49,226 bases of DNA. Source: Escherichia coli. Its GTDB lineage: Bacteria > Pseudomonadota > Gammaproteobacteria > Enterobacterales > Enterobacteriaceae. The position numbers were made by a program. The stretch lies in NCBI RefSeq assembly GCF_003334765.1, contig NZ_QOWT01000030.1; one strand, written 5' to 3'. Within the stretch, counting starts at the first letter, position 1; every line of letters begins with the position of its first letter. This document shows, in pieces, positions 24,001 through 27,000 of the stretch.

Positions 24001-27000
24001 ATACGCCCCAAAAACCACTGTCCTGCTGGCCACTTGCGTTCAGTGCCGGGCTTCTCGGTATCGGGCAGAACGGTCTGCTGGTTGTGCTCCCTGTTCTGGT
24101 CATACAGACAAATCTGAGTCTGTCTGTATGGGCTGCCCTGCTGATGCTTGGCTCAATGCTGTTTCTGCCATCGTCCCCGTGGTGGGGAAAGCAAATTTCC
24201 CGTACTGGCAGTAAACCTGTGGTGTTGTGGGCTCTGGGAGGATATGGCATAAGCTTTACCCTGCTAGGGCTGGGAAGCGTGCTGATGGCTACCAGCGCCA
24301 TAACAACAGCGGTGGGACTGGGAATATTAATCATCGCCCGGATCGCCTACGGGCTGACCGTGTCGGCAATGGTGCCAGCCTGTCAGGTCTGGGCATTGCA
24401 GAGAGCAGGAGAAGGGAATCGCATGGCCGCTCTGGCAACCATCAGCTCCGGCCTGAGTTGCGGCAGGCTATTCGGGCCGCTGTGCGCGGCAGCAATGCTG
24501 GCCATTCATCCTCTGGCGCCACTGGGGCTGCTGATGGCAGCCCCAGTGCTGGCGCTGCTGATGCTGCTGCGGTTGCCCGGCACACCACCACAGCCCACAC
24601 CGGAGCGCAAGAGCGTCAGTCTGAAGCGGGATTGTCTGCCTTATCTGCTTTGCGCAATATTACTGGCTGCGGCGGTGAGCATGATGCAGCTTGGACTTTC
24701 GCCTGCCCTTACTCGCCAGTTCGCCACGGATACCACCGCCATTAGCCAACAGGTGGCCTGGCTGTTGGGTCTGTCCGCAGTAGCTGCGCTTATCGCGCAG
24801 TTCGGGGTACTCCGTCCGCAGCGCCTGACTCCGGTGGCCCTGCTCCTGAGTGCCGGAGTGTTGATGAGTGGTGGTCTGGCTATCATGCTCTCCGAACAGC
24901 TATGGTTGTTTTACCCGGGCTGTGCAGTGCTGTCATTTGGAGCAGCTCTGGCAACACCCGCTTATCAACTTCTACTGAATGATAAGCTGGCTGATGGCGC
25001 AGGCGCGGGCTGGCTCGCTACCAGTCACACACTTGGCTATGGACTGTGCGCTTTGCTGGTGCCGCTGGTATCGAAAACAGGTGTCGCAATCGCGCTGATT
25101 ATGGCGGCATTATTTGCAACTATATTATTTACCATTGTGTCTGTATTTATCTGGCATTACCGTGCTATCAAATAAAGATATGATCATCACCTTACCGGAG
25201 TAACTCAGAGGATATGAGAGAGAACCTGCGTCTGATGAAAGCATGTCAGGCAGTAACACTGGCAAAAATGCACCGCATGGTACAGGGTATGTTCGGTATA
25301 AAACCGGCCGGTGTCACTTAAGTTGCATTGAAGTCATGCTGGTTGTGAGTGCAACATCACATGGCTCTGTCCGGATGCCTGCAGACAATGAGAACAGTGC
25401 GATTACTCATTGGGAATGAGATGAATGCATCCCCAACATTAGATCTGGGGCACCGTGATAAATAAAGGGGAAAATCAGAGAGGTGTCGAGCCTCGCAGAT
25501 TTCCGGCAGCCCAATACGGGATGCATAAAACTCTCTCAGAGTGGCGTTGACACCTGAAAGAGCTGGAGCGTGAAAATCGTGAACTGCGCCGCAGTAACGA
25601 TATCCTTCGCCAAGCTTCCGCTTATTTTGCGAAGGAGGAGTTCGACCGCCTCTGGAAAAAATGATGCCACTGCTGGATAAGCTGCGTGAGCAGTACGGGG
25701 TCAGACCGGTATGCAGCGAACTGCATATTGCCCCGTCAACGTATTACCATTGTCAGCAACAGCGACATCATCCGGATAAACGCAGTGCCCGTGCGCAGCA
25801 CGATGACTGGCTGAAGAAAGAGATACAGCGCGTATACGATGAAAATCACCAGGTATACGGTGTGCGTAAAGTCTGGCGTCAGTTGTTACGGGAAGGTATC
25901 AGAGTGGCCAGATGCACTGTGGCACGTCTCATGGCAGTTATGGGACTTGCCGGTGTTCTCCGGGGTAAAAAGGTCCGTACGACCATCAGCCGGAAAGCCG
26001 TTGCCGCAGGCGACCGCGTAAACCGTCAGTTCGTGGCAGAACGACCTGACCAGCTGTGGGTGGCTGATTTTACTTACGTCAGCACATGGCAGGGCTTCGT
26101 CTATGTGGCGTTCATCATTGATGTGTTTGCCGGATACATTGTGGGGTGGCGGGTCTCATCGTCCATGGAGACGACATTCGTGCTGGATGCACTGGAGCAG
26201 GCGTTATGGGCCCGTCGACCGTCCGGCACGGTCCATCACAGTGATAAAGGTTCTCAGTATGTATCGCTGGCCTACACACAGCGGCTTAAGGAAGCCGGAT
26301 TACTGGCATCAACAGGAAGTACAGGCGACTCGTATGACAACGCGATGGCGGAGAGCATCAATGGTCTTTACAAAGCGGAGGTAATACACCGTAAGAGCTG
26401 GAAAAACCGTGCAGAAGTGGAACTGGCCACACTCACGTGGGTGGACTGGTATAACAATCGACGATTGCTGGAAAGGCTGGGCCATACTCCTCCGGCAGAA
26501 GCAGAAAAAGCTTATTATGCTTCCATCGGAAACGATGATCTGGCAGCCTGAGTTCACAGATAAAACACTCTCCAGGAAACCCGGGGCGGTTCAAACCTGA
26601 TTCTGGAAAAGGACTTTGTGGATTGTTGCTATTGCCAGTGAGATTGAATGAAGTCGTTTTAACTCGCTTTGAATACGTCTTGCCCCCAGATTTCGCTGAG
26701 AACGTAACTCCAGAATCAGAGCGACTTCGCAAGTGCCGGTTTTCGTTGATGGTGAACGCTTGGGGCGACGGCTGTGGCTTTCCAGACCAGCGATGCCCTG
26801 AGCCAGATATCTGCGCCACCATTTTACGCAATGTGGGCCGAGAAATGCCACAGCGACGGCATACAAATCCCGCATCACCGGACGTTTCATAGAGTTTTAC
26901 CCACTGTAGCCGCTGCTGAATTTCCCTGTTCATAATTTGGCATTAGTTCAGCTCAATCCCGACTTAAAAAGTCCCTACAGGATGTTCCGGACCTGAGGCA

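What the first reader, a model, noticed from the sequence alone, without database searches (positions are those of the whole stretch)
25545..26933. Nested IS scars: truncated IS3-family element inserted into an IS481-family transposase gene
The IS3-family right inverted repeat ends at 26593 and its terminal TCA supplies the stop codon of the interrupted IS481-like reading frame. The IS3 element itself lacks its left end and the orfA N-terminus. This records successive insertion and deletion events between the aerobactin locus and the PP-loop/ParB module, and is probably a recombination seam of the island.
Basis: seen in the sequence. Interest (0 to 1): 0.3.

Follow-up and report, generated by a model that had tools for sequence, protein, structure and literature searches.

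The report
Old IS629/IS481 scars at island seam
Two dead, truncated insertion sequences (an IS629 copy lying against a fragment of an IS481-family element) mark the joint where the aerobactin genes are spliced into a well-known E. coli tellurite-resistance island; this is an ordinary structure that is already annotated and partly published.

Summary
Window 25554-26593 (+) is IS629/IS1203 (IS3 family) nt 271-1310. Its right inverted repeat is intact and ends at 26593. Its left repeat and orfA codons 1-72 are missing. Window 26594-~26945 (-) is an internal piece of an ISEc18-like IS481-family element, covering transposase codons 1-113. Codon 114 is replaced by the TGA formed by the IS629 terminus.

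- The IS481 piece also lacks both of its own inverted repeats.
- It carries a 1-bp frameshift upstream of that stop.
- The IS629 piece is an allelic mosaic.

The IS629|IS481 joint occurs in 459 of 5,426 complete E. coli genomes, including O157:H7 OI-43/48. There the IS629 remnant is the published "259 bp cryptic IS629 overlapping Z1647". The shiF|IS629-nt-271 joint is shared with IncF aerobactin plasmids. O145 strain RM9154-C1 has lost the aerobactin genes through IS629 recombination at this exact site.

NCBI's annotation pipeline (PGAP) already annotates both pieces as pseudogenes. It is ordinary and of low interest.

The parts
25176..25553 (.). Non-coding spacer between the shiF (MFS transporter) stop codon and the IS629 breakpoint. 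It belongs to the aerobactin module.
   Evidence: It is collinear with IncF aerobactin plasmids from shiF through to the IS629 IRR (98.7% over 24001-26593). 201 complete E. coli genomes hold at least 80% of 25200-25600. Other aerobactin loci diverge after about 25254. The window lacks 7 bp after 25508 that the relatives have.
25554..26593 (+). 5'-truncated IS629/IS1203-type IS3-family element (IS nt 271-1310 of 1310). IRL and orfA codons 1-72 are missing and IRR is intact.
   Evidence: 99.2% identity to the full-length copy L003:1231-2540. IS homology starts at query position 379, which is window 25554, in thousands of plasmid hits. PGAP annotates the same piece in E2865 as 'IS3 family transposase; frameshifted; incomplete; missing N-terminus'.
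25554..25664 (+). orfA remnant: codons 73-108 plus the stop.
   Evidence: The translation LKELERENRELRRSNDILRQASAYFAKEEFDRLWKK* matches the C-terminus of the 108-aa OrfA of the intact copy.
25619..25735 (+). ALIL pseudoknot, the programmed -1 frameshift signal of IS3-family elements.
   Evidence: Rfam RF01497, 109.6 bits against a gathering score of 50, E=1.2e-27, full model 1-117.
25661..26551 (+). orfB, the DDE/rve catalytic part of the transposase. It is an uninterrupted 296-aa ORF.
   Evidence: NCBIfam NF033516 'IS3 family transposase', 317 bits against a cut-off of 160, profile positions 93-369. ORF listing.
25937..25977 (.). Interval in which the IS629 fragment switches allele type. It marks a past crossover or gene conversion.
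   Evidence: At 6 sites (IS nt 420-653) the window and E2865 carry the alleles of the IncF-plasmid truncated copy. At 21 sites (nt 695-1283) they carry the alleles of EHEC IS629 (L003) and of the EDL933 259-bp remnant.
26569..26593 (+). IS629 right inverted repeat. Its last three bases, TCA (26591-26593), read TGA on the minus strand.
   Evidence: 23 of 25 bases match the IRL of the intact copy in reverse complement. Sequence read.
26594..26945 (-). Internal fragment of an ISEc18-like IS481-family element (about nt 30-380 of 1022 in its own orientation). It holds transposase codons 1-113 (ATG at 26933-26931), and both inverted repeats and the catalytic domain are absent.
   Evidence: 99.4% identity to the intact element L006 and 90.6% to ISEc18 L007. 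After repair the 113 aa are 112/113 identical to the intact 323-aa transposase. NCBIfam IS481 is the best match, profile 1-104, and the intact relative scores 267 bits against a cut-off of 224. No copy of the 25-28-bp IR occurs anywhere in the window; the best match is 18/28.
26822..26825 (-). A run of four T where intact copies have three. This 1-bp insertion frameshifts the IS481-family transposase after codon 37.
   Evidence: Alignment A1, column 263. Removing one T restores the frame. EDL933 has the same insertion.
26946..27248 (.). Non-coding flank that replaces the missing IS481-family inverted repeat and leads to the 214-aa ORF / PerC / ibrB / ibrA module.
   Evidence: It was found only together with the fragment, in 459 genomes. 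All other IS481-family hits stop at or before query position 352, which is window 26945.

Best explanation
These are inert insertion-sequence scars, not a working element.

Inferred order of events:
1. An ISEc18-like IS481-family element sat beside the ibrAB module of a tellurite-resistance (OI-43/48, SpLE1-type) island.
2. A full-length IS629 transposed into its transposase gene after codon 113.
3. The IS481 element lost its outer inverted repeat and picked up a 1-bp frameshift.
4. Everything to the left of the IS629 copy was then replaced by recombination.

In this window the left part of the IS629 copy, together with the shiF-iucABCD-iutA module, comes from an already 5'-truncated IS629 of the kind found next to shiF on IncF plasmids. 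The right part comes from the island's own copy. The fragment is therefore a hybrid made by homologous recombination inside IS629.

What it does now is purely passive. With one inverted repeat and no orfA N-terminus it cannot transpose. It still offers 1 kb of sequence nearly identical to the many IS629 copies in these genomes. RecA-type recombination can use that homology to add, delete or swap the neighbouring aerobactin module.

Shown here: the anatomy, the distribution of the two joints, the allele mosaic, and one natural deletion that ends in this copy. Inferred: the order of events, and whether aerobactin was gained by this island or lost from the O157 version.
For: The IS629-IRR | IS481 joint is present in 459 of 5,426 complete E. 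coli genomes. That is every genome that has the IS481-fragment/ibr flank, so it looks like a single old event.

In EDL933 the same joint carries only a 259-bp IS629 remnant that abuts a truncated IS66. Bielaszewska et al. 2011 (PMC3064760) describe this as the '259 bp cryptic IS629' overlapping putative transposase Z1647. They showed it to be an end-point of IS629-mediated deletions in OI-43/48.

The left joint is shared with IncF plasmids, where RepFIB follows the IRR instead of the IS481 fragment. One such plasmid has a second, full-length IS629 in direct orientation just beyond iutA.

In E2865 the aerobactin module is bracketed by direct IS629 3' repeats that are 100% identical over 259 bp.

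The allele mosaic has its switch at 25937-25977.

O145 RM9154-C1 is reported as the only aerobactin-negative O145:H28 strain (PMC9144400). It has a full-length IS629 at this joint and lacks the 10.4 kb between an IS66 tnpA site and IS629 nt 271. Its alleles place the crossover to the right of nt 653.
Against: - The reciprocal joint (3' part of the IS481 element, target duplication, IS629 IRL) was not found in 5,426 genomes or 72,556 plasmids. The primary insertion is therefore inferred from one end only.
- The mosaic could come from later gene conversion by any of the many IS629 copies, rather than from the crossover that brought in aerobactin. The IncF plasmids examined are not exact donors: their iutA-side IS629 sits about 85 bp closer to iutA than in E2865.
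- The direction of change cannot be decided, that is, aerobactin gained by an O157-like island or lost from an aerobactin-bearing ancestor.
- In this window the second flanking IS629 repeat is absent. ISSso4 sits there instead.
- Strain 135 has a different IS629-like / IS481-fragment pair next to a divergent aerobactin locus. The IS481 scar may therefore have travelled with aerobactin rather than with the island.
Confidence: 0.85

Rival explanations
1. IS629 never inserted into the IS481-family gene. Instead, an IS629 copy located nearby produced a flanking deletion, by aberrant transposition or by the IS-excision enhancer IEE. That deletion started at its right end and happened to stop inside the IS481-family element.
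For: Only one IS629 end is available, and there is no target duplication or reciprocal joint anywhere. IEE is encoded on SpLE1-type islands and increases both IS629 excision and more extensive deletions (review preprint 10.1101/2023.06.07.543989). The IS481 fragment has also lost sequence on its other side by an unknown deletion.
Against: This needs an extra event compared with simple insertion. IS3-family copy-out/paste-in is not expected to leave adjacent deletions (same preprint). It gives the same present-day structure and the same present-day behaviour.
Confidence: 0.12
2. The two fragments are parts of a single known composite or chimeric mobile element.
For: They always travel together in 459 genomes. 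A second, different IS629-like / IS481-fragment pair lies beside aerobactin in strain 135.
Against: Each part aligns at 99% to a separate, complete, independently mobile IS with its own inverted repeats and different flanks (L003 1310 bp; L006 and L007 1022 bp with 25-bp IRs and 7-bp duplications). The pair has only one terminal repeat in total. The IS629 part varies from 259 bp to 1040 bp to 1310 bp between genomes while the joint stays fixed.
Confidence: 0.02
3. The remnant has been kept for a function. For example, the intact orfB or the truncated HTH peptide of the IS481-family transposase could act as a regulator of IS629 or of neighbouring genes.
For: orfB is an uninterrupted 296-aa ORF with its frameshift pseudoknot. 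A 99-aa ORF (26591-26890, minus strand) retains the HTH_32-type region.
Against: The IS promoter region (IRL) and the orfA start are gone. O157 keeps only 259 bp of the IS629 copy and other strains carry an IS600 insertion in it, so there is no conservation of orfB at this site. The IS481 ORF is frameshifted and lacks its native start in frame. Near-identity to active IS629 copies is explained by recent recombination or conversion.
Confidence: 0.03

Closest known systems
IS629 / IS1203 (IS3 family), the abundant IS of EHEC and Shigella
   Same: 99.2% nucleotide identity to a full-length 1310-bp copy over nt 271-1310. It has the same IRR, the same orfA/orfB overlap with the ALIL pseudoknot, and a DDE orfB. 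PGAP labels near-identical copies 'IS3-like element IS629/IS1203 family'.
   Different: It lacks IRL and 270 bp of the left end, including the orfA N-terminus, so it cannot transpose. It is a mosaic of two allele types.
'259 bp cryptic IS629' overlapping ORF Z1647 in OI-43/OI-48 of E. coli O157:H7 EDL933 (Bielaszewska et al. 2011, PMC3064760)
   Same: It has the same IS629-IRR | IS481-fragment joint and the same right flank, at 99.9% from window 26335 onwards. That paper shows the remnant acting as a partner for IS629 homologous recombination that deletes island DNA.
   Different: Here the IS629 remnant is 1040 bp rather than 259 bp. Its left neighbour is the aerobactin module rather than a truncated IS66.
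ISEc18-like IS481-family insertion sequence
   Same: The N-terminal 113 codons are 112/113 identical to the transposase of an intact 1022-bp element (L006). Identity to ISEc18 is 90.6%.
   Different: Only about 350 bp of 1022 remain. Both 25-bp inverted repeats and the rve catalytic domain are missing, and the piece is frameshifted.
IS-bracketed aerobactin modules on plasmids (IncF plasmids here; IS1-flanked aerobactin of pColV-K30 from my own knowledge)
   Same: The shiF-spacer | IS629 nt 271 joint is identical. In plasmid NZ_CP132064.1 a second IS629 in direct orientation lies beyond iutA. E2865 has the same direct-repeat bracket in the chromosome.
   Different: In this window the iutA-side IS629 repeat is replaced by ISSso4. 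In the plasmids the IRR is followed by RepFIB, not by the IS481 fragment.

Membership tests
IS3 family (IS629/IS1203) | DDE (rve) transposase catalytic domain of IS3 type | tested here: met
   orfB 25661-26551 scores 317 bits against NCBIfam NF033516, cut-off 160.
IS3 family (IS629/IS1203) | Two overlapping reading frames, orfA and orfB, joined by a programmed -1 frameshift | tested here: met
   The orfA tail ends at 25664 and orfB starts at 25661. The ALIL pseudoknot RF01497 scores 109.6 bits at 25619-25735. orfA itself is incomplete: codons 1-72 are absent.
IS3 family (IS629/IS1203) | Two terminal inverted repeats (5'-TG...CA-3') | tested here: not met
   IRR is present at 26569-26593. IRL is absent, because homology to the intact copy starts at IS nt 271. 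The piece is a fragment of a member, not a complete element.
IS3 family (IS629/IS1203) | Short (3-4 bp) target-site duplication flanking the element | not testable with these tools
   The left end is missing here, and no reciprocal joint exists in the collections searched.
IS3 family (IS629/IS1203) | Near-identity to the named reference IS (ISfinder criterion) | tested here: inconclusive
   99.2% identity to a full-length 1310-bp copy, and near-identical copies are labelled IS629 or IS1203 by PGAP. ISfinder itself was not available.
IS481 family (ISEc18-like) | Single transposase with an N-terminal HTH and a C-terminal rve DDE domain | tested here: inconclusive
   The fragment's best family is NF033577 IS481 (83 bits, profile 1-104), below the full-length cut-off of 224 because only 113 aa remain. 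The 99.4%-identical intact relative scores 267 bits and has HTH_28/HTH_32 plus rve/rve_3 domains.
IS481 family (ISEc18-like) | Terminal inverted repeats and a target duplication | tested here: not met
   The intact relatives have 25-bp IRs (TGTGTGATTCATAGACATCGTTTCA) and 7-bp duplications (CCTGACT; AACTAGA). The window has no copy of the IR; the best match is 18/28. It is a fragment only.
Composite transposon / IS-bracketed translocatable module | Two copies of the same IS flanking the cargo | tested here: not met
   IS629 matches the window only at 25554-26593. The iutA side carries ISSso4. The feature is met in relative E2865, which has direct 259-bp repeats, and in plasmid NZ_CP132064.1.

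The most novel reading that the evidence does not exclude
The IS629 remnant fixed at the IS481 scar may be a recurrent docking and excision site. Through it, plasmid-derived aerobactin modules would be repeatedly plugged into, and looped out of, tellurite-resistance islands across STEC lineages. The allele switch at 25937-25977 would then record the original plasmid-to-chromosome crossover. This is an extension of known IS-mediated recombination, not a new mechanism.
Probability: 0.4. Interest if true: 0.25.

Novelty: already known. Interest (0 to 1): 0.1.

Why it matters
It matters little beyond bookkeeping. It explains how the aerobactin siderophore genes come to sit inside the OI-43/48-type tellurite-resistance island of non-O157 STEC, and why they can be lost again, as in O145 RM9154-C1. 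It also gives two diagnostic joints (25553/25554 and 26593/26594) that could be used to trace this island variant. No new biology is implied.

Tried and rejected
- I searched for the reciprocal half of the nested insertion with a synthetic joint made of the IS481 3' part, AAC and the IS629 IRL. There was no contiguous match in 5,426 E. coli genomes. The only 100% hit, AH19B041, is an intact IS481-family element lying beside a separate IS629, not nested with it. There was none in 72,556 plasmids either.
- I searched the window for the IS481-family inverted repeat and found nothing better than 18/28.
- I searched for island copies with the IS481 fragment but no IS629. There are none: 459 genomes either way.
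- I asked whether the 893-aa neighbour (30618-33299) is the IS-excision enhancer IEE. It matches SF1 helicase families only, with no PrimPol evidence, so the idea was dropped.
- I tested the IncF plasmid NZ_CP132064.1 as the exact donor. Its iutA-side IS629 joint is about 85 bp away from that of E2865, so it is not the direct donor.
- I tested whether strain 135 holds the intact ancestor. Its IS629-like copy is separated from a shorter IS481 fragment by 50 bp of unrelated sequence and has no target duplication, so it is a different scar.
- The exact arrangement of this window (ISSso4 next to iutA) was not found in any complete E. coli genome.

Full report
**1. What is in the sequence**

Reading 25000-27600 and aligning it to a full-length IS3-family copy from an O145 plasmid (L003:1231-2540, 1310 bp) gives the following.
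- Window 25554-26593 (+) is IS nt 271-1310 at 99.2% identity.
- The right inverted repeat is complete and ends ...GGGGCGGTTCA at 26593.
- The left inverted repeat, the promoter region and the first 72 of 108 orfA codons are missing.
- What remains is the orfA tail (25554-25664), the ALIL frameshift pseudoknot (Rfam, 109.6 bits) and an unbroken 296-aa orfB. orfB scores 317 bits on the NCBIfam IS3 model, cut-off 160.
- Near-identical copies elsewhere are labelled IS629 or IS1203 by PGAP.

**2. The second fragment**

Window 26594 to about 26945, read on the minus strand, matches an intact 1022-bp IS481-family element at 99.4% (L006, strain PEC199). It matches ISEc18 at 90.6% (L007).
- The intact relatives have 25-bp inverted repeats and 7-bp target duplications. 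Their 323-aa transposase passes the NCBIfam IS481 cut-off (267 against 224) and has HTH plus rve domains.
- The window keeps only codons 1-113.
- After removing one T from the run 26822-26825, the peptide is 112/113 identical to the intact protein.
- Codon 114 (AAA, Lys) is replaced by TGA. That TGA is the reverse complement of the IS629 terminal TCA at 26591-26593.
- Homology to all intact copies also stops at 26934-26945. The element's own terminal repeat is missing and occurs nowhere in the window.

**3. The region is already annotated**

In 174 complete E. coli genomes the whole stretch 25300-27250 is present at about 99.5%. PGAP annotates it as 'IS3 family transposase; frameshifted; incomplete; missing N-terminus' and 'helix-turn-helix domain-containing protein; frameshifted; incomplete; missing C-terminus'. 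These lie between an MFS transporter (shiF) next to iucA and a hypothetical / PerC / IbrB-like / PAPS-reductase (ibrA-like) block. The carriers are STEC of serogroups O26, O103, O111 and O145, among others. The island sits at tRNA-Ser and carries ter, iha and cah. It is thus the OI-43/48, or tellurite-resistance island, type (PMC9144400).

**4. The two joints have different distributions**

- The right joint (IS629 IRR | IS481 fragment) is in 459 of 5,426 genomes. This is exactly the set that has the IS481 fragment with its ibr-side flank. No genome has that flank without IS629.
- The set includes O157:H7 EDL933, which has no aerobactin. There only the last 259 bp of IS629 remain, abutting a truncated IS66, and the window and EDL933 are 99.9% identical from 26335 onwards. 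This is the '259 bp cryptic IS629' overlapping putative transposase Z1647 that Bielaszewska et al. 2011 showed to be an end-point of IS629-mediated deletions in OI-43/48 (PMC3064760).
- The left joint (shiF spacer | IS629 nt 271) is shared with IncF plasmids that carry aerobactin. Identity is 98.7% from shiF to the IRR. After the IRR those plasmids continue into the RepFIB region.

**5. Evidence that the fragment is a recombination seam**

- In E2865 the aerobactin module is bracketed by direct repeats of the IS629 3' end that are 100% identical over 259 bp. In one IncF plasmid a full IS629 in the same orientation lies just beyond iutA.
- The IS629 fragment of the window and E2865 is a mosaic. 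At six sites in IS nt 420-653 it has the alleles of the plasmid-type truncated copy. At 21 sites in nt 695-1283 it has the alleles of EHEC IS629 and of the EDL933 remnant. The switch falls in window 25937-25977.
- O145 RM9154-C1 is reported as the only aerobactin-negative O145:H28 strain. It has a full-length IS629 at the IS481 joint and lacks 10.4 kb relative to E2865, running from inside IS66 tnpA to IS629 nt 271. Its alleles place the crossover in the right half of the IS. This is a natural IS629-by-IS629 deletion that ends in this copy.

**6. Most likely history and mechanism**

An IS629 inserted into an IS481-family element beside ibrAB. Deletions then removed the outer end of the IS481 element. 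Recombination within IS629 joined this copy to a 5'-truncated IS629 that already lay next to shiF. The fragment cannot move, having one inverted repeat and no orfA start. Its only present role is as 1 kb of homology for recombination with other IS629 copies.

Three points are not resolved.
- Whether aerobactin was gained by an O157-like island or lost from an aerobactin-bearing ancestor.
- Whether the mosaic reflects the joining crossover or a later gene conversion.
- Whether the primary event was an insertion or a deletion that started at the IS629 end. The reciprocal joint was not found, and IEE-type deletions are a known alternative.

**7. Complications**

In this window the iutA-side IS629 repeat is absent. 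An ISSso4 (IS21 family, 13472-15684) abuts the module within 0-3 bp of the base where E2865 has the IS629 IRR. Left of it is unrelated DNA: a type I restriction-modification locus with darTG. Strain 135 has another IS629-like copy, 50 bp of unrelated sequence and a 240-bp IS481 fragment beside a divergent aerobactin locus, in inverted orientation. The association of these scars with aerobactin may therefore be older than the island context.

**8. Verdict**

The structure is ordinary, is annotated as pseudogenes in public genomes, and its O157 form is published. Novelty is 'already known' and interest is 0.1.

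Noticed in passing
window 13472-15684 (boundary at 15682-15685): An ISSso4 (IS21 family) copy abuts the iutA-distal edge of the aerobactin module. It lies within 0-3 bp (shared CTT) of the base where strain E2865 has the IRR of a 259-bp IS629 remnant. Two different IS ends meeting at one boundary is unexplained. Left of ISSso4 the window is unrelated to E2865.
   Followed up: partly
window 13571-15658 (-): A single 695-aa ORF spans both the IS21 transposase (IstA) profile and the IstB helper-ATPase profile. These are normally two genes.
   Followed up: no
window 3656-12280 (+): A type I restriction-modification locus (hsdM 3656-6094, hsdS-like 6088-7434, hsdR 9185-12280) has a DarT/DarG toxin-antitoxin pair (7446-8102, 8087-9166) embedded between hsdS and hsdR.
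   Followed up: partly
window 44146-44219 (-): Rfam match to the EHEC small RNA Esr41 (103.4 bits against a gathering score of 102), near iha (46164-48254).
   Followed up: no
window 25508/25509: The window lacks 7 bp (TCATAGT) that both the chromosomal relative E2865 and the IncF plasmid copy have in the shiF-IS629 spacer. It also has private SNPs at 25613 and 25636 inside the IS629 fragment.
   Followed up: partly
L013:5001-6579 (E. coli strain 135): A second, different scar pair lies next to shiF/iucA of a divergent (92%) aerobactin locus, inverted relative to the window. It consists of a full-length but frameshifted IS629-like copy (94%), 50 bp of unrelated sequence, a 240-bp IS481-family fragment (equivalent to window 26629-26868) and an ISL3 pseudogene.
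   Followed up: partly
L012:7001-8310 (E. coli O145 RM9154-C1): A full-length IS629 sits at the IS481 joint, and 10.4 kb including iutA-iucDCBA-shiF is deleted relative to E2865. This explains the aerobactin-negative status reported for this strain.
   Followed up: yes
L002:3947-5103 (strain 2013C-3513 and several O103 strains): In some carriers an IS600 is inserted inside the truncated IS629, giving a third layer of nesting at the same seam.
   Followed up: no
window 28885-30162 (-) versus L001:9593-10824: The ibrA-like PAPS-reductase gene is an open 425-aa ORF in the window, but it is annotated as frameshifted in E2865.
   Followed up: no
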